Source: an uncultured Candidatus Saccharibacteria bacterium (GTDB lineage: Bacteria; Patescibacteriota; Minisyncoccia; JACPXH01). Taken from it: DNA of 64,000 nucleotides. The DNA lies in assembly GCA_964409225.1 (NCBI GenBank), contig CAYPCM010000002.1:413-64412 (forward strand), written 5' to 3'. This document shows, piece after piece, positions 20,332 through 38,340 of the stretch; within the stretch, counting starts at the first letter, position 1; each line of letters opens with the position of its first letter. The notes below the pieces were generated by a model. That model ran no database searches. It saw nothing but the letters and a program-made list of their open reading frames with translations, and was not told where the DNA came from. The position numbers and the translations under genes were made by a program.

Positions 20332-20343
20332 AAAGAGATCGCT

Positions 20344-20379
20344 TTCCTAATTATATCACGTACGTGATATAATTAGGAA
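20344..20379. promoter_or_regulatory. 36-bp perfect palindrome TTCCTAATTATATCACGTACGTGATATAATTAGGAA containing extended -10 TGATATAAT on both strands; 12 bp upstream of murC start
   Basis: read directly; identical copy at 28180-28215. Confidence 0.6.
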
Positions 20380-20442
20380 TGCCGAGAATACAACATGCTC
20401 GGTAACACAACCGGAACACGGAGCAAACGCCGGCCCAAAACG

Positions 20443-28179: not shown

Positions 28180-28215
28180 TTCCTAATTATATCACGTACG
28201 TGATATAATTAGGAA
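28180..28215. promoter_or_regulatory. second copy of the 36-bp perfect palindrome TTCCTAATTATATCACGTACGTGATATAATTAGGAA
   Basis: identical to 20344-20379; here between convergent spermidine-synthase-like gene and hpf. Confidence 0.6.
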
Positions 28216-32731: not shown

Positions 32732-32777
32732 ATGTACATTCTACAAAAAATATCGCGGCTGATCAAGAAAAACAATT

Positions 32778-33957
32778 GGCGGAGACCCCGGAGGATCTCC
32801 GCCCTGTGCGGGAACACGCCCTGCCCAACTCGGCTGGACCAAATTTAGCCGAACCGGGCTGCGTTGGAGAATCGGCGGCGTTCGCCTGCAGGCGAACGCC
32901 GCCCTGCGCTGGACAACGCCTCACCTTGATATGCCGTGCGCTGCTTAACTCTAGCAAACGGCAGCATGCCGGGGAGACGATTCTGAATTTGGGATTCGGC
33001 GAGGCGCTGATCTGCGCCTCGCCCCGTGCGTAGGGAAACCTTGCGACATCCCGCGAAGCGATACTTCACGTAACAAGGCCCTGACGTGCTCCGCAAGGCG
33101 TTGCGGTGTGTATCCCAAGAAAGAACAGAATGTGATTGACGAAGCCTGTCATTGACAGGCTTCGTCCCGTGCAAAGTCCTGCTGGACTGGAGCTTACTAG
33201 GGCACACACCACTATACTGGAGTGAGCCACACGCCACAAAGCAATGGCGTGATTGTAAAACAGAGTTTTGGCAGAGAGCCCGCGGGCTCTCTGCCCCGTG
33301 CGAAAGCAAGGAGGAGCCGGCAGCGCGATACTTTGCTCGAGCGCACCACGCGATGCAGAACTCAACCCTGCCGTGGTTTGCGGGAGATGGCGGGGATTTT
33401 TACAAGAATCCCCGCCCCATGCCCAACTCTGCAAAACTGAACCCAGCTTGGCTAAGCTTTACAAGGCCTGGCCCCGCTCAGCTTGGCAAAACATATATAA
33501 CATCCACAACATAACTAGTCAAGCTCAAACAGCAAAGAAAGACGGGAGCCGAATCGGCTCCCGTCCCGTGCCCTGCGCTGCTATGTCGTACCACAGCTAG
33601 CTGGACAAAACTTCGCCCGACAGCACGGAGATGTGTGAACGATATTGATGAGTGGCGGGGACTCTTTCGAGCCCCCGCCCCGTGCAGAACTTCACTGGAG
33701 GTTGCTACAGACAGCTCTGCTGGGCTGCGCCTTGGAGTGTGAACAGCAAGGTTGTCCGTAGACAACGAAATCTCTGCTACCCAGAAAGTGTCGGCGAGGC
33801 GCAGGAGTGCGCCTCGCCCCGGGCTACGCGGTACCCCACGCGGCCTGACTCCGCCTCACCACACAAGGCGAAACCAAACCATGGTCGGAAGGCGAACTAG
33901 TGTGCCGGTACATTCACCAGAGTTGACAGGGGCGCCCGAAGGCGCCCCTGTCCCGTG
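32778..33957 (-). repeat. array A: ~10 tandem ~125-bp units, each = variable GC hairpin (10-16 bp stem; sequence differs, structure conserved) + invariant CCGTGC (plus-strand reading); on minus strand GCACGG-hairpin-U-tract terminators of small-RNA-like units
   Basis: hairpins at ~32778, 32874, 32998, 33138, 33270, 33389, 33541, 33654, 33792, 33924 each followed by CCGTGC (variants CTGTGC/CTGCGC/CCATGC/CCGGGC); internal TTGACT-N17-TATATA promoter at 33494-33522 on minus strand. Confidence 0.7.
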
Positions 33958-34042
33958 CTGGACCAAGCTGGGCCCGACTTGACCGAACCGAGCCCGACCC
34001 TAGACGACCAAGGGCTGGTTTGCCCAGGTGCGTGAAACGACA

Positions 34043-35836
34043 TCACCTCCTCCCCAAGAGTTTCAGCGTCTCCTCGACGCACTGATCGAACGTGAGCGTA
34101 CCGCGGTACGCCGGCTCGAGCCAGCCGGGCAGCGAACCGAACACAAACCGCCGGAACTGCTGCGAGATAAAGAACGTGACTCCTTTGTCCTCGGTACTGC
34201 GGATGTTGCGTCCGCGCACCTGCAACGCCTCGATCATCACCCGCCAGTTCCAGAGCTCCCAGAGCCGACGGCCGAAGCGCTTACCCTCAAAAACCGCCAT
34301 TGGGTCTTTGGGGTTGGGGAAGCCCGGCTTCAAGAAGAAAATGACCGGAGCCATCATCTTCGGCAGATCAACTCCTTCTCCGTACTGCGCCACGGTGCCC
34401 ACGAGCACCGTCCCCTCACCCTCCTTGAAGTTTGCGGCTGCCGCTTTCGCGGTCGTGCCATTGCCGTAGCTTGTCGCATGCACTCCTTCCTCGACGCAGA
34501 ACGCGAGGAACTTTTGGCGTTGCTTCTCGGAGACCACCACGACGAGCGACCGGTGGCCGGCTGCGCCGAACTTCACGCAGGCCCTCGCAATCCGCCGAAG
34601 CACCTTTGTCGGCTCGGCGCGGATGCACACCTTGGCTGCCAAGCTTGGCGTATCGATGGGCATAAAGATACGAGCGTTGTCAGCCGAAAACGTGGACGCA
34701 AGGCTGCAGACGGGAAAATCAATCCCCGTCTCGAACGCAAACACCTGCGGGTTGCCGATCGTCGCCGAATAGGCAACCGTTATGCGGCCAAAGAGTTTAC
34801 GGATGATGGGTGCGACATAGTACGCCCGGATGACGAGCTTGTGCCGAACCCTTTCGCGCTCCGTAAGCTCTTCCCGGTAGAAGGCATACGTGTAGTTGAG
34901 CGCATGACGCTCGCCGGTTGCAAGCGAGTAGCCGAGCGACCGGATGTACCGCCCAAGATCCAGCGCGAGCACCTCGAGCTTCTTCAGAGCCTCGCGGCGC
35001 TCTCGCGGATCAATTCGGCGATCCTTCACCGCCTGAGCAAGCTTCGTGCGGAGCGCATCCGGCTCAATCTTCACCAGCTCATCTAACAACTCCCGGATCT
35101 CCTCGGCCTCGAGCAGGGTCTCGGTCTTTGCCGGCTTCGCCCTAGCGATCCGAACCATCGTCTTCAAGAACTGCTCAAACGCAGCCGCCTCTCCTTCAGC
35201 ACCGATCTCCTCAAGGAGCTCGATGCATTTGCGCAGATGCCAGTCGGTAATCTCATAGCTCAAGAGGCTACGAATCGCGCGAGCGATCCGGTGCGCCTCA
35301 TCAATGATGAGCGCTGCCGGCTGGCGCCACTCTCTCGAGAACAGCTGCGTGAAGAGGTAGAAGGCGTAGGTGCAGACCACCATCGGCGCCTGCTTTGCCT
35401 CGTACTTTGCGCGTAGGTAAGGACACGATGGCGCACCCGGCTCAAACGTCTCGCCTGTCTGCTGATCCACACGAAAGCGGCAATCGATGAGGATCGAACA
35501 TGGAATCTCATCTGCCTTCAACCCCTCGCCCTCATAATAGAGACAGTCATACTCGCTTCGCCCGTAGGCGATCCGGAGATCCGGACACATGTGTCCCACT
35601 TGCTCGACGAGCGTCTTCGTCGGAGCAATGTAGAACAACGGTCCTTCATTGAGACGACGGTGCGCTCGCAACACGGTGTAGCCGATGTCGGTTTTGCCGG
35701 TGCCAGTCGGCGCTTCGAGCACGCAGGACCGGTGCTTTTCGGCAAAATCGAGACCCTGCTCTTGAACCGACCGCATATGTGGATGGATGTGCCGCGGAAA
35801 GCTTGCCTTCAAGTTCAGAGGCCGCTCTTCCTTCAT
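34043..35836 (-). CDS. DinG/XPD (Rad3)-family Fe-S helicase
   Basis: motif I VLEAPTGTGKT, four-Cys Fe-S cluster region (DCLYY..PCSILIDC..SCPY), DEAH box LIIDEAHRIA, helicase C-terminal motifs. Confidence 0.85.
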   Translation of the reverse strand: MKEERPLNLKASFPRHIHPHMRSVQEQGLDFAEKHRSCVLEAPTGTGKTDIGYTVLRAHRRLNEGPLFYIAPTKTLVEQVGHMCPDLRIAYGRSEYDCLYYEGEGLKADEIPCSILIDCRFRVDQQTGETFEPGAPSCPYLRAKYEAKQAPMVVCTYAFYLFTQLFSREWRQPAALIIDEAHRIARAIRSLLSYEITDWHLRKCIELLEEIGAEGEAAAFEQFLKTMVRIARAKPAKTETLLEAEEIRELLDELVKIEPDALRTKLAQAVKDRRIDPRERREALKKLEVLALDLGRYIRSLGYSLATGERHALNYTYAFYREELTERERVRHKLVIRAYYVAPIIRKLFGRITVAYSATIGNPQVFAFETGIDFPVCSLASTFSADNARIFMPIDTPSLAAKVCIRAEPTKVLRRIARACVKFGAAGHRSLVVVVSEKQRQKFLAFCVEEGVHATSYGNGTTAKAAAANFKEGEGTVLVGTVAQYGEGVDLPKMMAPVIFFLKPGFPNPKDPMAVFEGKRFGRRLWELWNWRVMIEALQVRGRNIRSTEDKGVTFFISQQFRRFVFGSLPGWLEPAYRGTLTFDQCVEETLKLLGRR

Positions 35837-35929
35837 CTCTCCTCCCTGCTCGCGTTACGCGAGACTGAACCAGGGTTGCGGTGATGGGAGCTTCTTCGTA
35901 GGAGCTCCCAGATGTCAAAGATCAACCGT

Positions 35930-35961
35930 TTTGATATATCAAAAACAGAAAACTTTGTCAA
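35930..35961 (-). promoter_or_regulatory. promoter for DinG-like gene: TTGACA-N17-(TGa)TATATC on minus strand, embedded in the lead of repeat unit 12
   Basis: reverse complement of 35933-35961 reads TTGACAaagttttctgtttttgaTATATC. Confidence 0.45.
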
Positions 35962-36263
35962 TGTTTCAAAAAAGAAACGGCGGGGATCCGGAAGGATCCC
36001 CGTCCCGCGCATCGCCACACTTAGCTCGACCCTGCGATAGTGAGCAACGGTGGACGGCGTAGTGGTACAAGTAGAAGGAACGATTATGGCGGCGGGGCTC
36101 ACCGCAGAAACTGGCGAGGTCGCCATTGGGCGACCTCGCCCTGTGCAACGCGACGCGATGCTTTACTCTGACCCGCCGAACGCCACCCTGCTGGACATTA
36201 CTTGACTCTGCAGAACCGCGTTGCTAAAAGAACAGACGGCAGGGAACCCTTTGGATCCCTGCC

Positions 36264-36374
36264 CCGTGCCACGCAGCGCCGAACCACGCCATAAGGTACC
36301 GGAGCTCGCCCTGAAGCGCCGCATCGAGCTCTGCTGTGGTCGGCTCTGTAAAATATCATTATCACAAGTAAAAC
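36264..36374 (-). ncRNA. example of one predicted small-RNA unit (~110-125 nt): promoter TTGACA-N15-TGtGATAAT (36368-36394) -> body with internal hairpin gagctcg..cgagctc -> GCACGG + terminator hairpin (unit 14) + UCUGUUCUUUU
   Basis: promoter, body and intrinsic terminator all readable on minus strand. Confidence 0.35.
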
Positions 36375-36899
36375 TACCTGTCAATGTTCAATGTTCAAAA
36401 AGAAGCGGCGGGGATCCTTCCGGATCCCCGCCCCGTGCCAAACTCTACAGAACTGAACTCAGCCTAGGCCGACTCCACTCTGAGCGGCACCGCTACGGCG
36501 AGTTAAGCTCCGCGGCCTTAGGGTAAATTTGCGAGAGCCCTGATGGGAGCTCCCGCCCGTGCTGGGCCTTAGACTACGCGACCCTGCTAAGCACCGGACA
36601 ACTCCGCAATGCGCGACCGCACTAAGAGGATATTCTACAGAAGCGATGATGGAACCCTCCAGTGGAGGGTTCCATCCCATGCGAGACCAGACGCTACTGC
36701 GCTGCACCAGACGGTAACTGGGTTAGCGTAGCAAGGCCGGGCCGCACCGGGCGGCTCCGAGAAAAGGCGGGGATCCAAACCGCGGATCCCCGCCCCATGC
36801 GCTGCTCTGCGCTGCTGAACTGGACCAAACGAAGACGAGTCACGCTGCGCCGAACCGAGTAGCCTAAACGCCGTAAGCCCCAAGGAAGAGAGCCTTGCC

Positions 36900-37607
36900 C
36901 TATGACGCCACCGCGGCCTTCGCGCGCCTGCCCTTCGCTGGCTTCTCGGTCGTGACCTCCGGTCCGCCCTCCCCGTCCTCGCCCTCACCCGTCTCGACGC
37001 CGGACTCGTCGGTGCTCTCGGCCGCGGCCTTCGGGGATTTGGTCCGCTCGAGCACCTCCCAGGTCTTGATGCGGAAGCGCCCGAAGTTGCCCTTGGTCCG
37101 GAAACTGCACAACCCGAAGCACCGTCCGGCCTCGACGAAGAGCTGCTTGGCCGACTTCTCGGACAGCAGATCCTCCTCGATCCGAATGACCACCTCGATC
37201 TCCCACTGGTTGAACTTGGGCCGGACGATCCGGCAGGCGGTGCCGTCCAAGTTGTCGCCCTTGCGCTTGTCCACAACCCAGCCAGAACCGTGGTTGATCG
37301 GGAAGAACTCCTGCTCGAGCGTGACGAGCGCGGGCAAGAACGTGAGCTTGCCGCTCGAGACCTTCCGCTTGTCGCGGAACGGGATGAACACGCCGCCCTC
37401 ACGCAGACACGCGAACAGGTTGTCCCCGGGGATGCCGAGCTGCCCTTCGGCGTTGAGGTAAAGTTTGCCCGCGGCGATCTCCTTGACCGGTCGGTCCTTA
37501 CGCACCGGCAACTTCACGCCGGTCCCGATGGAGTCCAGCACCTCCTCGGACATCGGGTCCATGAGCAGCGGCCTCGTACCCTCCAACACCACCCTGACTC
37601 GAATCAC
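36900..37607 (-). CDS. RAMP-superfamily protein, Cas7-like (Csm3/Cmr4/Csf2-like) with acidic C-terminal tail
   Basis: N-terminal beta-strand IRVRVVLEGTRPLLM, LPVRKDRP...LGIPGDNLFACLREGG (cf. Cas7 PV.RD..IPGSSLKGxLR), C-terminal glycine-rich loop FGLCSFRTKGNFGRFRI. Confidence 0.5.
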   Translation of the reverse strand: MIRVRVVLEGTRPLLMDPMSEEVLDSIGTGVKLPVRKDRPVKEIAAGKLYLNAEGQLGIPGDNLFACLREGGVFIPFRDKRKVSSGKLTFLPALVTLEQEFFPINHGSGWVVDKRKGDNLDGTACRIVRPKFNQWEIEVVIRIEEDLLSEKSAKQLFVEAGRCFGLCSFRTKGNFGRFRIKTWEVLERTKSPKAAAESTDESGVETGEGEDGEGGPEVTTEKPAKGRRAKAAVAS

Positions 37608-37639
37608 GGCTTACCTCCTGGGCTTTCTGCCCGTGAGAG

Positions 37640-38340
37640 AGTGAAAAGAACGAGCGGGAAGAGCATTCTCCCCGCCCTCCTCTGATATGATCCACATATC
37701 ATACGTTGATATACATGTCAAGAGCTTGTACAAGAAATAAAACGACGGGGACCCTAGAGGGTCCCCGTCCCGTGCGAAACAAGGATGGGCACTGCGGCGC
37801 GAAGCATTACAGCACGACACGTTACGAGGCTTCGCCGTGCGCTGTGCTCTACCCGTTACCGCCTTTTCGCTTCCCTCCGAAAAAGTTCTGACACCGACCC
37901 GTACATCACCCCCCCCCCCCGATCGTACCGGCCGTTCCCGCTCGGCTTGCACGAGAGCTCCGATGATCCGCTTGTGCTTGCCGTGCCTCGCAAACGCCTT
38001 GCTCTTGTTCCAGATTTTCTGGACCATCTTCCTACCCCCGGCGTCGGTAATGGGGATCGGCAGGTGTCCGTTCGCGAACGGACACCTGCCCCGTGCCGGA
38101 GATTGATGGGCCGGACCGGACCCTGCTGCGCTTGACTGGACCGCGGGCAACGTTGCTATGCCCGGCTTGGCATTAAGTTTACTAGCACATACGGCTTGCA
38201 CTGTCAAACGCAGATTTTTACTCCGTGGAATTAACGCATTTGCGAGCAGAGACGTCCACACAATCAAACAAGCCCGGACGCATGCGTCCGAGTTGTGATT
38301 TGACGTGCGCCGAGCTTGTATGATCCCCGTGCCGTCCCAG
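37640..38340 (-). repeat. array C: 3-4 further hairpin+CCGTGC units (gacggggaccct-aga-gggtccccgtc ~37744; 16-bp palindrome ggcaggtgtccgttcgcgaacggacacctgcc ~38059) with minus-strand promoter TTGACA-N17-TGcTAGTAA near 38205
   Basis: read directly. Confidence 0.5.
37690..37722 (-). promoter_or_regulatory. promoter for RAMP-like gene: TTGACA-N17-(TGa)TATGTG on minus strand, embedded in lead of repeat unit 21
   Basis: reverse complement of ~37693-37721. Confidence 0.4.

What the first reader, a model, noticed from the sequence alone, without database searches (positions are those of the whole stretch)
32778..38340. About 20 tandem hairpin-plus-CCGTGC units flanking a DinG-like helicase and a Cas7-like RAMP gene: a possible array of individually transcribed small or guide RNAs
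Across 5.5 kb there are about 20 units spaced 115-148 bp apart. Each has a GC-rich hairpin with a 10-16 bp stem and a 3-7 nt loop. The stem sequence differs from unit to unit, for example ggcggcgttcgcc, gacgaagcctgtc, ggcagagagccc, gacgggagccg and ggcaggtgtccgttcg, but the stem-loop architecture is preserved. This pattern of compensatory change is typical of selection on structure. Each hairpin is followed immediately by an almost invariant CCGTGC, with variants CTGTGC, CCATGC, CCGCGC and CCGGGC.

Read on the minus strand, which is the strand of the two embedded protein genes, each unit becomes GCACGG, then the hairpin, then a U-rich tract such as GUUUCUUUUUUG or GUUUUAUUUCUUG. That is an intrinsic terminator.

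Several units are followed on the minus strand by good promoters: TTGACT-N17-TATATA at 33494-33522, TTGACA-N15-TGtGATAAT at 36368-36394, TTGACA-N17-TGcTAGTAA near 38205, and the promoters for the DinG-like and RAMP-like genes. Each of these defines a self-contained transcription unit of roughly 100-130 nt whose 5' body, about 60 nt, is unique. A loosely conserved GGUCCAG(U) motif recurs inside the bodies.

The overall picture is a cassette of small-RNA genes with variable guide-like bodies and a conserved 3' handle (GCACGG plus hairpin). The cassette is interleaved with a DinG/XPD helicase gene (Csf4-like) and a Cas7-like RAMP gene. This could be a divergent, minimal type-IV-like or otherwise novel RNA-guided system in which guides are made by individual promoters and terminators rather than by Cas6 processing of identical repeats. 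I know of no described system with this architecture.
Basis: partly seen in the sequence, partly recalled or inferred. Interest (0 to 1): 0.92.

Follow-up and report, generated by a model that had tools for sequence, protein, structure and literature searches.

The report
VIPR guide-RNA array with helicase
This 5.7-kb island in a Parcubacteria (CPR) chromosome is a VIPR system, a CRISPR-like RNA-guided DNA-recognition system first described in two 2026 preprints, carrying one small RAMP protein, a DinG/XPD-type helicase and 19 guide RNAs made of five-base repeats, so it is a real and rich example of a very recently described kind rather than an unknown one.

Summary
Nineteen GC-rich hairpins on the minus strand, each preceded by GCACGG-like bases, lie only in 32778-38175. 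They surround a DinG/XPD-type helicase gene and a 235-aa gene whose predicted fold is a Cas7-like RAMP.

Each "unique body" consists of 12-20 in-phase pentamers of the form Y-N-N-R-G: position 1 is a pyrimidine in 250 of 252 pentamers, position 5 is G in 79%, and positions 2-3 are at background. GCACGG is simply the last pentamer.

This architecture matches VIPR systems (bioRxiv 10.64898/2026.04.26.720920 and .720927): a minimal RAMP (Vipr), vrRNAs built of YNNGG repeats with a structured 3' tail, and an accessory gene. A profile of the 235-aa family matches the solved SUSP1 Vipr protein (E 2e-8, near full length).

The vipr, helicase and vrRNA-array module recurs in about 60 CPR loci.

Applying the published NN-plus-one-skipped-base code, one guide (vr07) matches 15 consecutive dinucleotides in a metagenomic gene. 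The skipped bases fall on codon wobble positions, and the gene sits in a cluster encoding a type IV secretion coupling protein.

Only about 5 promoters and 5 terminators exist, so most guides come from multi-unit transcripts. It is not a type IV CRISPR system and is not undescribed.

The parts
36900..37607 (-). vipr gene: a 235-aa minimal RAMP protein (GTG start; the ortholog in L002 has ATG at the same position)
34043..35836 (-). Accessory (vap-like) gene: a 597-aa DinG/XPD/Rad3-family helicase with Walker A, DEAH and conserved Fe-S cysteines
   Evidence: Pfam Helicase_C_2, DEAD and DEAD_2. PADLOC typeIV_DinG PDLC01439 at E 4.9e-50 over the full length. NCBIfam dinG_rel and rad3 score below cutoff; cas_csf4 scores only 22 bits. 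Sequence hits in the PDB are XPD, FANCJ and Rad3. Invariant GxGKT, DEAH and Cys residues appear in alignment A4. There are more than 390 CPR homologs.
38059..38175 (-). vr01: 17 in-phase pentamers (38091-38175) plus a tail hairpin (38059-38090). It is promoter-proximal.
   Evidence: TTGACA at 38207-38202 and TAGTAA at 38184-38179 read
37744..37844 (-). vr02: 15 pentamers plus a tail hairpin that is followed by a U-tract (terminator of transcription unit 1)
   Evidence: the hairpin is conserved with compensatory changes in L002
36766..36859 (-). vr03: 13 pentamers plus a tail hairpin, the first unit downstream of vipr
36648..36751 (-). vr04: 15 pentamers plus a tail hairpin
36531..36626 (-). 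vr05: 14 pentamers plus a weaker tail hairpin (36531-36556). It was missed by the strict hairpin scan.
36407..36512 (-). vr06: 16 pentamers plus a tail hairpin with a U-tract (terminator of the vipr transcription unit)
36238..36358 (-). vr07: promoter-proximal guide. The transcribed part probably starts near 36350. It has 17 pentamers plus a tail hairpin, and it is the only guide with a predicted natural target.
   Evidence: Promoter TTGACA at 36384. The NN dinucleotides are conserved in the L002 ortholog while positions 1, 4 and 5 vary. 15 consecutive NN match L082/L085 under the 1-nt skip rule.
36113..36220 (-). vr08: 16 pentamers plus a tail hairpin
35979..36079 (-). vr09: 15 pentamers plus a tail hairpin with a U-tract, immediately followed by the helicase promoter
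33925..34042 (-). vr10: up to 18 pentamers starting at the helicase stop codon, plus a tail hairpin
33793..33888 (-). vr11: 14 pentamers plus a tail hairpin
33654..33739 (-). vr12: 12 pentamers plus a tail hairpin
33541..33635 (-). vr13: 14 pentamers plus a tail hairpin with a U-tract (terminator of the helicase transcription unit)
33389..33491 (-). vr14: promoter-proximal guide with 15 pentamers, all ending in G, plus a tail hairpin
   Evidence: TTGACT at 33522-33517, N17, then TATATA at 33499-33494, read
33270..33388 (-). vr15: about 18 pentamers plus a tail hairpin
33138..33251 (-). vr16: 17 pentamers plus a tail hairpin
32998..33108 (-). vr17: 17 pentamers plus a tail hairpin
32874..32973 (-). 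vr18: 14 pentamers plus a tail hairpin
32778..32868 (-). vr19: 13 pentamers plus a tail hairpin with a U-tract (end of the island)
37652..37722 (-). vipr promoter region (TTGACA at 37722-37717) and a tail-like, terminator-like hairpin in the 5' UTR (37652-37677). Both are highly conserved in L002.
35933..35961 (-). Helicase promoter: TTGACA at 35961-35956, N17, then TATATC at 35938-35933
   Evidence: read
37857..38032 (-). Small basic ORF (57 aa) between vr01 and vr02, containing a G12 homopolymer. It is doubtful as a gene.
   Evidence: No family match. The L002 ORF at the same position is not clearly alignable.

Best explanation
The island at about 32760-38210 (minus strand) is a chromosomal VIPR (Viral Interference Programmable Repeat) locus of a Parcubacteria/CPR bacterium. 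It encodes a Vipr protein (a minimal single-RRM RAMP of 235 aa), a DinG/XPD-type helicase acting as the accessory (vap) gene, and 19 vrRNAs.

Each vrRNA has 12-20 tandem pentamers Y-N-N-R-G and ends in a GC-rich hairpin tail.

By analogy with the experimentally studied SUSP1 and P. fulva systems, one Vipr protomer would bind each pentamer and form a helical filament. The filament would sequester the conserved R-G-Y bases and present the two variable bases. Double-stranded DNA would be recognised by pairing those dinucleotides while skipping every third target base.

Five promoters drive five transcription units:
- vr01, the small ORF and vr02
- vipr followed by vr03-06
- vr07-09
- the helicase followed by vr10-13
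- vr14-19

Most vrRNAs must therefore be cut out of longer transcripts by an unknown step. The helicase is probably recruited to the bound target to unwind or remodel it, as DinG is in type IV-A CRISPR. The targets are competing mobile elements.

Shown here: the protein fold and homology, the repeat code, the tail structure, conservation of the module in CPR, and one code-compliant natural target.

Inferred: RNP assembly, processing, silencing, and the role of the helicase.
For: 1. Vipr homology. The family profile hits the solved SUSP1 Vipr at E 2e-8 across nearly the whole chain, with an aligned G-loop (GxGDWRP..RFGRF against GLCSFRTKGNFGRF) and thumb RP motif. Structure searches return only CRISPR RAMPs at the top.

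2. Repeat code. With the phase anchored on the hairpin, position 1 is Y in 250/252 pentamers, position 5 is G in 79%, position 4 is R in 69%, and positions 2-3 are near background. Chi-square is 589 against a shuffle maximum of 43. Each unit has 12-20 consecutive in-phase pentamers. All 19 long tracts (12-20 pentamers) lie on the minus strand inside the island; the four marginal tracts (9-11 pentamers) found elsewhere or on the other strand are probably noise.

3. The published definition matches: 9-16 (up to 30) YNNGG repeats, with YNNNG and NNNGG variants, followed by a structured 3' tail, plus vipr and a vap gene that can be a helicase.

4. The module is conserved. A Vipr homolog lies within 5 kb of the helicase in about 58 of 67 CPR loci. 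There are 543 pentamer tracts on the gene strand against 16 on the other. 72% of tracts are followed by a stable hairpin against 7% of controls.

5. Orthologous vr07 in L002 keeps the NN positions while positions 1, 4 and 5 drift within Y, R and G.

6. Under the 1-nt skip rule, vr07 matches 15 consecutive dinucleotides (30 bases) in contig L082/L085, starting at the first transcribed pentamer. Every skipped base falls on the codon wobble position of a 131-aa ORF. The score is 31/36 against a shuffled maximum of 23.

7. Promoter-proximal tracts begin within a few bases of the predicted transcription start sites.
Against: - No transcript data exist for this organism.
- Only 1 of 19 guides has a predicted target; the seven correctly specified viral-contig scans found nothing.
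- The repeat is degenerate at position 4 (G 38%, A 31%) compared with the canonical GGY.
- The tail is a simple hairpin whose sequence varies between guides of one locus. In the SUSP1 clade the tail is invariable and forms a pseudoknot.
- The locus sits between housekeeping genes, not in a recognisable prophage.
- The VIPR type cannot be assigned, because the preprints' figures and data tables are not available as text.
- Sequence similarity to SUSP1 Vipr is remote, and identity is low.
Confidence: 0.87

Rival explanations
1. A degenerate or minimal type IV-A CRISPR-Cas system (Csf2-like Cas7 plus Csf4 DinG) whose CRISPR array has decayed into dissimilar hairpin repeats with long spacers.
Against: - Direct repeats are only 60-88% identical and irregularly spaced.
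- No Csf1, Csf3, Csf5 or Cas6 genes are present, and the island holds only two or three genes.
- The RAMP matches no Csf2 or Cas7 sequence profile but does match SUSP1 Vipr.
- NCBIfam cas_csf4 scores 22 bits against a cutoff of 400, and PDB sequence hits are XPD and FANCJ, not Csf4.
- The 'spacers' are strict five-base repeats, which CRISPR spacers are not.
Confidence: 0.04
2. About 20 independent small regulatory RNA genes, each with its own promoter and terminator. They would act as sponges or regulators by repeated protein-binding motifs, as CsrB does for CsrA or the 11 triplets do for TRAP, rather than as guides.
For: Five good promoters and five U-tract terminators exist. Periodic short motifs are typical of protein-titrating RNAs.
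Against: - 14 of 19 units have neither a promoter nor a U-tract.
- The variable dinucleotides are conserved between orthologs while the 'binding' positions drift.
- One unit matches a foreign gene exactly according to the published gapped code, with skips at wobble positions.
- The protein partner is homologous to a proven guide-presenting protein.
Confidence: 0.05
3. A local cluster of REP/MITE-like or terminator hairpins, or integron-like attC sites, that only happens to lie next to these genes.
For: The hairpins have variable sequence with conserved structure, as attC sites do. Some are genuine terminators.
Against: - The hairpin-plus-hexamer units and the long (12-20 pentamer) tracts occur only inside the island in 64 kb.
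- They are strictly co-oriented with the genes: 543 tracts on the gene strand against 16 on the other, across the 77 related loci.
- The same association recurs in about 60 loci from many CPR lineages with different flanking genes.
- No integrase is adjacent.
Confidence: 0.01

Closest known systems
VIPR systems (Viral Interference Programmable Repeat): Escherichia phage SUSP1 and the P. fulva prophage, 'type II' (bioRxiv 10.64898/2026.04.26.720920 and .720927)
   Same: - A small single-RRM RAMP with G-loop and thumb, related in sequence (E 2e-8).
- Guides made of tandem pentamers with a fixed pyrimidine, fixed G(s) and two hypervariable bases, followed by a structured 3' tail.
- Guide lengths of roughly 90-130 nt.
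- Several guides upstream and downstream of the genes.
- No CRISPR array and no adaptation genes.
- A target match obeying the NN plus 1-nt-skip rule, with the skip on the wobble base.
   Different: - The accessory gene is a 597-aa DinG/XPD helicase rather than a small DNA-binding Vap1.
- There are 19 guides rather than 4.
- Repeat position 4 is R (G or A) rather than G, and the window protein has Ser where SUSP1 has the G1-reading Asp177.
- The tail is a plain hairpin whose stem sequence differs from guide to guide (covarying), not an invariant pseudoknot.
- The location is chromosomal in a CPR bacterium, between housekeeping genes.
Helicase- or nuclease-associated VIPR types (types III-V of the same preprint)
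   Same: The preprint states that types III-V carry predicted nucleases or helicases, and that some types sit in prokaryotic chromosomes and act as host defence. It also describes YNNNG, NNNGG and NNNNG repeat variants.
   Different: It cannot be told which type this locus belongs to, or whether CPR loci are among the 667 representatives. The text mentions neither DinG nor CPR/Patescibacteria, and the figures and data tables are not available. No hammerhead ribozymes lie between guides here: Rfam gave no match in the window.
Type IV-A CRISPR-Cas (Csf1-Csf5 with DinG/Csf4)
   Same: A RAMP backbone protein works with a DinG-family helicase, the probable outcome is silencing rather than cleavage, and mobile elements are the targets.
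   Different: There is no repeat-spacer array, Cas6, Cas5 or Cas8-like subunit. The guide pairs discontinuously (2 of every 5 guide bases, 2 of every 3 target bases). Csf2 profiles give no match, and the Csf4 equivalog model is far below its cutoff.
Type III Csm3/Cmr4 and type VII Cas7 backbone subunits
   Different: Those proteins bind 6-nt segments of an arbitrary spacer within multi-subunit complexes. This protein's cognate RNA has a 5-nt sequence period, and the protein stands alone.

Membership tests
VIPR system | A Vipr protein: a small (~20 kDa), single-RRM RAMP with G-loop and thumb, homologous to characterised Vipr | tested here: met
VIPR system | vrRNAs made of tandem pentamer repeats (YNNGG or a related consensus), at least 4 and typically 9-16 units, with conserved GGY and hypervariable NN | tested here: met
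   There are 19 tracts of 12-20 in-phase pentamers. Y1 is 99%, G5 79%, R4 69%, and N2-N3 are near background; chi-square is 589 against a shuffle maximum of 43. Position 4 is degenerate (YNNRG), a variant class the preprint lists.
VIPR system | A structured 3' tail capping the repeat tract | tested here: met
   Every tract abuts a 10-14 bp hairpin. 98.8% of cells are paired, with compensatory changes at 9 of 10 pairs. In related loci, 72% of tracts have such a tail against 7% of controls. It differs from SUSP1 in that the sequence is not invariant and no pseudoknot is evident.
VIPR system | A minimal locus: vipr plus one accessory gene flanked by long non-coding stretches, with no CRISPR array and no adaptation genes | tested here: met
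   The island contains vipr, the helicase and one doubtful small ORF. The flanks are MurB, a TIG protein, endonuclease IV and SOD. No identical repeats are present. The vipr-helicase pairing is conserved in about 58 of 67 loci.
VIPR system | Target recognition by the NN dinucleotides with a one-base skip, the skipped base usually being the codon wobble | tested here: met
   Met for 1 of 19 guides. vr07 matches 15 consecutive NN (30 bases) in L082/L085 with all skips at wobble positions of a 131-aa ORF. The 10 bases beyond the searched core all match, which is about 1e-6 per hit by chance. No target was found for the other guides.
VIPR system | ~100-nt vrRNAs are expressed and co-purify with Vipr, and the RNP silences targeted promoters or genes | not testable with these tools
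   This needs small-RNA sequencing, pull-down and reporter assays. Only promoter and terminator positions could be read.
Type IV-A CRISPR-Cas | A CRISPR array of near-identical direct repeats separated by unique spacers | tested here: not met
   Repeat families reach only 60-88% identity with irregular spacing. The 'spacers' are pentamer repeats.
Type IV-A CRISPR-Cas | Csf1 (large subunit), Csf2 (Cas7), Csf3 (Cas5) and Csf5/Cas6 genes | tested here: not met
   The 235-aa and 57-aa products match no PADLOC, NCBIfam or Pfam model. No further ORFs of suitable size lie in the island.
Type IV-A CRISPR-Cas | A Csf4 (DinG) helicase | tested here: inconclusive
   The PADLOC 'typeIV_DinG' model PDLC01439 scores E 4.9e-50 over the full length. 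However, the NCBIfam equivalog cas_csf4 scores 22 bits against a cutoff of 400, and the closest solved sequences are XPD, FANCJ and Rad3.
REP/BIME or MITE family | Copies dispersed through the genome, independent of particular genes | tested here: not met
   In 64 kb, the hairpin-plus-hexamer units and all long pentamer tracts lie only in 32778-38175. In other genomes they follow the vipr and helicase genes.
Integron cassette array | An adjacent IntI integrase and attC sites with RYYYAAC / GTTRRRY cores | tested here: not met
   Neighbouring genes are MurB, a TIG protein, endonuclease IV, SOD and an RNaseH-like protein. The conserved bases are GCACGG on one side only.

The most novel reading that the evidence does not exclude
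The CPR-wide vipr plus DinG/XPD-helicase module may be a distinct VIPR lineage not characterised in the preprints. It would have large arrays (up to about 30 guides per locus), covarying hairpin tails, and a relaxed YNNRG code read by a swapped pair of G1-contacting residues. Its helicase, which scores strongly on a profile labelled type IV-A DinG, could mark the evolutionary bridge between VIPR and type IV CRISPR-Cas. Host-dependent CPR bacteria, which mostly lack CRISPR, may use it as their main sequence-specific defence, including against conjugative elements that circulate in their host bacteria.
Probability: 0.15. Interest if true: 0.8.

Novelty: new member of a known kind. Interest (0 to 1): 0.5.

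Why it matters
VIPR is a newly reported way of recognising DNA with RNA: a gapped two-of-five code read out by a filament of one small RAMP protein. It has been proposed as the ancestor of CRISPR effectors.

This locus shows the system in a chromosomal, CPR-wide form, coupled to an Fe-S DinG/XPD helicase and carrying unusually many guides. Three results go beyond the identification:
- It provides 19 natural guides and one concrete predicted target, a membrane-protein gene in a cluster encoding a type IV secretion coupling protein.
- It gives a natural experiment on how the protein reads the first G of the repeat. Loci with Asp in the G-loop have G-rich position 4, while loci with Ser or Ala there are A-rich or relaxed.
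- It offers a helicase accessory whose role is unknown and testable.

For CPR biology, it suggests a sequence-specific defence in lineages long noted for lacking CRISPR.

Tried and rejected
- Rfam (gathering thresholds) and ARAGORN on the whole window found nothing, so there is no known RNA family, hammerhead ribozyme or tRNA.
- Pfam, NCBIfam and PADLOC gave no match for the 235-aa and 57-aa products.
- The first word-indexed homolog search found only 5 relatives and made the family look tiny. The exhaustive profile search corrected this to more than 4200 clusters.
- The search for related loci with the Vipr alignment failed because no stretch was conserved enough, so the helicase alignment was used instead.
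- A crude GG-lag-5 window score and a 'GG before the hairpin' rule under-detected units in AT-rich loci. They were replaced by the Y1-phase tract scan.
- A local target search (window plus 77 loci) with NN or NNN and 0-3 skipped bases found only self-matches; nothing exceeded the shuffled controls.
- The seven correctly specified viral-contig scans with 10-11-dinucleotide patterns from vr01, vr02, vr07, vr08, vr10, vr11 and vr14 found no hits.
- One viral-contig scan used a mistyped 18-base pattern. Its single hit (L078) is meaningless and serves only as a rough measure of background.
- Three of the six metagenome hits (L080, L081, L084; GC 70-72%) match only the searched core and are taken as chance.
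- tblastn of Vipr and the helicase against GenBank phages gave no match.
- The organism of the target contig could not be identified, because cluster look-ups carry no names.
- The integron, REP and decayed-CRISPR readings were considered and rejected (see the membership tests).

Full report
**1. Checking the observation**

A hairpin scan of the whole 64-kb window returns 76 hairpins.
- Eighteen form a distinct class: 10-14 bp GC-rich stems, 3-5 nt loops, stems beginning GRCRG, each followed on the + strand by CCGTGC or a one-base variant.
- All 18 lie between 32778 and 38090. A 19th, weaker unit (hairpin 36531-36556) emerged later.
- Start-to-start spacing is 96-169 bp.
- The hexamer is not over-represented window-wide (61 matches against 53 expected), but 15 of its 61 occurrences are in this stretch on one strand.
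- The stems differ between units yet stay paired. On an alignment of the ten outer base pairs, 98.8% of cells pair and 9 of 10 pairs show changes on both sides, against 42-49% pairing when the partner columns are slid. The caveat is that these hairpins were picked because they pair.
- The terminator scan finds a U-tract after only five of the tails, at 32778, 33541, 35979, 36407 and 37744.
- TTGACA-type -35 boxes with plausible -10 boxes are present at five places: 38207, 37722, 36384, 35961 and 33522. These were read; only the 36384 site passes the strict scan.

The units are therefore real, but they are not 20 promoter-terminator cassettes.

**2. The genes**

- The 597-aa ORF (34043-35836, minus strand) is a DinG/XPD/Rad3-family helicase. 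It matches Pfam Helicase_C_2, DEAD and DEAD_2.
- It has invariant Walker A, DEAH and four conserved cysteines.
- Its closest solved sequences are XPD, FANCJ and Rad3.
- One PADLOC model labelled typeIV_DinG matches it over its full length at E 4.9e-50. The NCBIfam Csf4 equivalog, however, scores only 22 bits.
- The 235-aa ORF (36900-37607, minus strand) has no Pfam, NCBIfam or PADLOC match.
- An AlphaFold model built from five homologs (pLDDT 72) has a single RRM-like core with a beta-hairpin thumb.

**3. The association is conserved**

- The RAMP's few close relatives sit on short contigs that also carry GCACGG-plus-hairpin units on the gene strand (L001, L002), or are followed directly by the same helicase (L003).
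- The helicase family is widespread in Patescibacteria, with more than 390 clusters at 52-61% identity.
- In three long contigs, the helicase is preceded by a 211-256-aa protein that aligns with the window protein at 37-39% identity. Both intergenic gaps hold hairpin arrays.
- A scan of one genome per species retrieved 67 loci from Parcubacteria, Saccharibacteria, Kerfeld-, Taylor-, Moran-, Uhr-, Berkel- and Kaiserbacteria and others.
- An HMM of the RAMP finds a homolog within 5 kb of the helicase in about 58 of these, usually upstream on the same strand.
- The exhaustive profile search shows the RAMP family is large: 4206 clusters at 50% identity.

**4. What the bodies are**

In the GC-rich relatives, the sequence between hairpins visibly consists of pentamers such as GGTGC GGTTG GGTCG.
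- GG autocorrelation peaks at lags 5, 10, 15 and 20 in every array and not in coding controls.
- I anchored the phase on the hairpin and stacked 14 pentamers for each of 18 units in the window. Position 1 is C or T in 250 of 252 pentamers. Position 5 is G in 79%. Position 4 is a purine in 69% (G 38%, A 31%). Positions 2 and 3 are close to background.
- Chi-square is 589, against a maximum of 43 in 2000 shuffles.
- Each unit has 12-20 uninterrupted in-phase pentamers.
- A blind scan for such tracts finds 19 long ones (12-20 pentamers) on the minus strand, all inside 32804-38175. Only four marginal tracts of 9-11 pentamers appear elsewhere or on the other strand.
- In the 77 related loci there are 543 tracts on the gene strand against 16 on the opposite strand. 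The median is 12 repeats.
- 72% of tracts are followed immediately by a hairpin of -10 kcal/mol or better, against 7% of random positions.

GCACGG is simply the last pentamer (CACGG) plus one base.

**5. Identification**

- A profile of the RAMP family hits one solved structure by sequence: PDB 36pp, 'SUSP1 Vipr protein', at E 2.1e-8 across nearly the whole chain.
- Both proteins also hit phage families: phrog_4652 (unknown function) and phrog_2488 (helicase).
- A literature search found two 2026 preprints describing VIPR systems.
- According to these preprints, a VIPR system comprises a minimal RAMP (Vipr) plus an accessory vap gene, flanked by long intergenic regions.
- Those regions encode ~100-nt vrRNAs of 9-16 YNNGG repeats followed by a structured 3' tail.
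- One Vipr protomer binds each repeat in a helical filament. It hides GGY and presents NN, which pair with dsDNA while every third target base is skipped, usually a codon wobble base.
- The outcome is transcriptional silencing of rival phages and satellites.
- Seven types exist. Some have YNNNG, NNNGG or NNNNG repeats, some have up to 30 repeats, and types III-V carry nucleases or helicases.

Every sequence-level defining feature is met here (see the membership table).

**6. Further tests of the VIPR reading**

(a) Orthologous guides.
- The window and L002 are 82% identical in Vipr.
- Their orthologous vr07 guides differ at pentamer positions 1 (C/T exchanges), 4 (A/G exchanges) and 5.
- Only 2 of 34 NN bases differ. 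This is as expected if NN carries the specificity.

(b) Transcription starts. The tracts of the three guides that directly follow a promoter (vr01, vr07, vr14) start within a few bases of the predicted transcription starts.

(c) A natural target.
- I used the published rule to write the 10 dinucleotides of vr07 that are conserved in both strains as NNxNNx... and scanned the metagenome collection.
- Six contigs matched the 20-base core.
- In one, L082 (identical in L085), the match extends to 15 consecutive dinucleotides. It begins at the first transcribed pentamer, and the 10 extra bases all match, which has a chance of about 1e-6 per hit.
- In L079 and L083, which are homologs of the same gene, 28 of 38 positions match.
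- The three GC-rich contigs match only the core.
- The site lies in a 131-aa predicted membrane protein, at ..AADTMVGSLAADLVR... In the gene's frame, every skipped base is the third codon position. This is the signature the preprint reports.
- The gene sits in a same-strand operon with a vWA-like protein and a TrwB/TraG-type fragment.
- In homologous clusters it lies with a lytic transglycosylase and an 895-aa type IV secretion coupling-type ATPase. In another cluster it lies beside a transposase and DruA.
- This looks like a conjugative or otherwise mobile element. Its host organism could not be determined.
- No other guide hits this element.

(d) Protein-RNA covariation.
- In SUSP1, the first G of GGY is read by His17 and Asp177.
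- Across 48 CPR loci, the two aligned positions covary perfectly. Asp in the G-loop goes with Asn on the beta-strand (25 loci), and Ser or Ala in the G-loop almost always goes with Asp on the strand.
- Asp-class loci have more G at repeat position 4 (mean 0.35 against 0.20; Mann-Whitney p 8e-5). Locus GC content does not explain this.
- The window protein is of the Ser class and has the relaxed YNNRG repeat.
- The loci are not phylogenetically independent, so this is suggestive only.

**7. How it most likely works**

Five transcription units are inferred:
- P38207: vr01, small ORF, vr02 with its terminator
- P37722: vipr, vr03-vr06 with terminator
- P36384: vr07-vr09 with terminator
- P35961: helicase, vr10-vr13 with terminator
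- P33522: vr14-vr19 with terminator

The rest of the mechanism is inferred:
- Guides inside these transcripts must be separated by an unidentified cut in the 5-30-nt linkers between a tail and the next tract. No ribozyme family was detected.
- Vipr would coat each tract, with the tail capping the 3' end.
- The complex would bind matching DNA of invading elements.
- By analogy with DinG in type IV-A CRISPR, the Fe-S helicase would be recruited to the bound site. The preprints themselves say the role of helicase accessories is unknown.

**8. Comparison and novelty**

The locus is a member of the VIPR kind, not of type IV CRISPR.
- It lacks a repeat-spacer array.
- It lacks the Csf1, Csf3 and Csf5 genes.
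- It gives no Csf2 profile match.

It differs from the characterised SUSP1 and P. fulva systems in several ways:
- the helicase accessory
- the number of guides
- the relaxed position 4
- the simple, covarying, non-invariant hairpin tail
- the chromosomal CPR setting

The preprint's text mentions helicase-bearing types but neither DinG nor CPR. Its figures and tables are not readable here, so I cannot say whether this lineage is already included. I therefore rate it a new member of a known, very recently described kind.

Noticed in passing
window 20341-20382 and 28180-28215: Two copies of a 36-42-bp perfect AT-rich palindrome (TTCCTAATTATATCACGTACGTGATATAATTAGGAA) lie 7.8 kb apart, far from the VIPR island. 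They could be an operator or a small mobile-element end.
   Followed up: no
window 37652-37677 (minus strand): A tail-like GC hairpin with a U-tract sits in the 5' UTR of vipr, between its promoter and RBS, without a pentamer tract. It and the whole UTR are almost invariant in the L002 relative. It may be an attenuator or an autoregulatory Vipr-binding site.
   Followed up: partly
window 37857-38032 (minus strand), homopolymer at about 37911-37922: A 57-aa, very basic ORF between vr01 and vr02 contains a run of 12 G (12 C on the + strand). L002 has a different basic 62-aa ORF at the same place. It is unclear whether either is a gene, and the homopolymer could cause phase variation or be an assembly artefact.
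   Followed up: partly
window 33408-33447 vs 36424-36463: The last six pentamers and the tails of vr14 and vr06 are 88% identical. This indicates that guides arise by duplication and then diverge at the NN positions.
   Followed up: no
L031, L034, L038, L039, L045, L048, L068, L072: Several CPR loci carry a second, much more divergent Vipr-like ORF (E 1e-12 to 1e-37) near the helicase. These may be paralogous RAMPs, that is, a step towards multi-RAMP effectors.
   Followed up: no
L037, L041, L063 (each about 11.8 kb): These loci hold 26-30 pentamer tracts each within the fetched 11.8 kb, so vrRNA arrays take up a large share of the DNA fetched around the helicase in these small CPR genomes.
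   Followed up: no
L011, L026, L051, L055, L073, L017, L021: Contigs carrying this CPR-type helicase-Vipr module are labelled in their records as Gammaproteobacteria, Woesearchaeota, Aenigmatarchaeota or Bdellovibrionales MAGs. This is probably mis-binning or mis-labelling, though transfer cannot be excluded.
   Followed up: no
PADLOC model PDLC01439 against window 34043-35836: A profile named 'typeIV_DinG, CAS-IV-A associated' matches this VIPR helicase end to end (E 5e-50), while the curated Csf4 equivalog does not. That profile may have been built partly from VIPR-type helicases, so such loci could be mis-called as orphan type IV components by defence finders.
   Followed up: partly
L089 11792-12427 and neighbours: A homolog of the vr07 target gene lies next to a DruA (Druantia) gene, a DDE transposase and a TonB-type outer-membrane protein. 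At least some members of the targeted gene family therefore reside in diderm, non-CPR bacteria.
   Followed up: no
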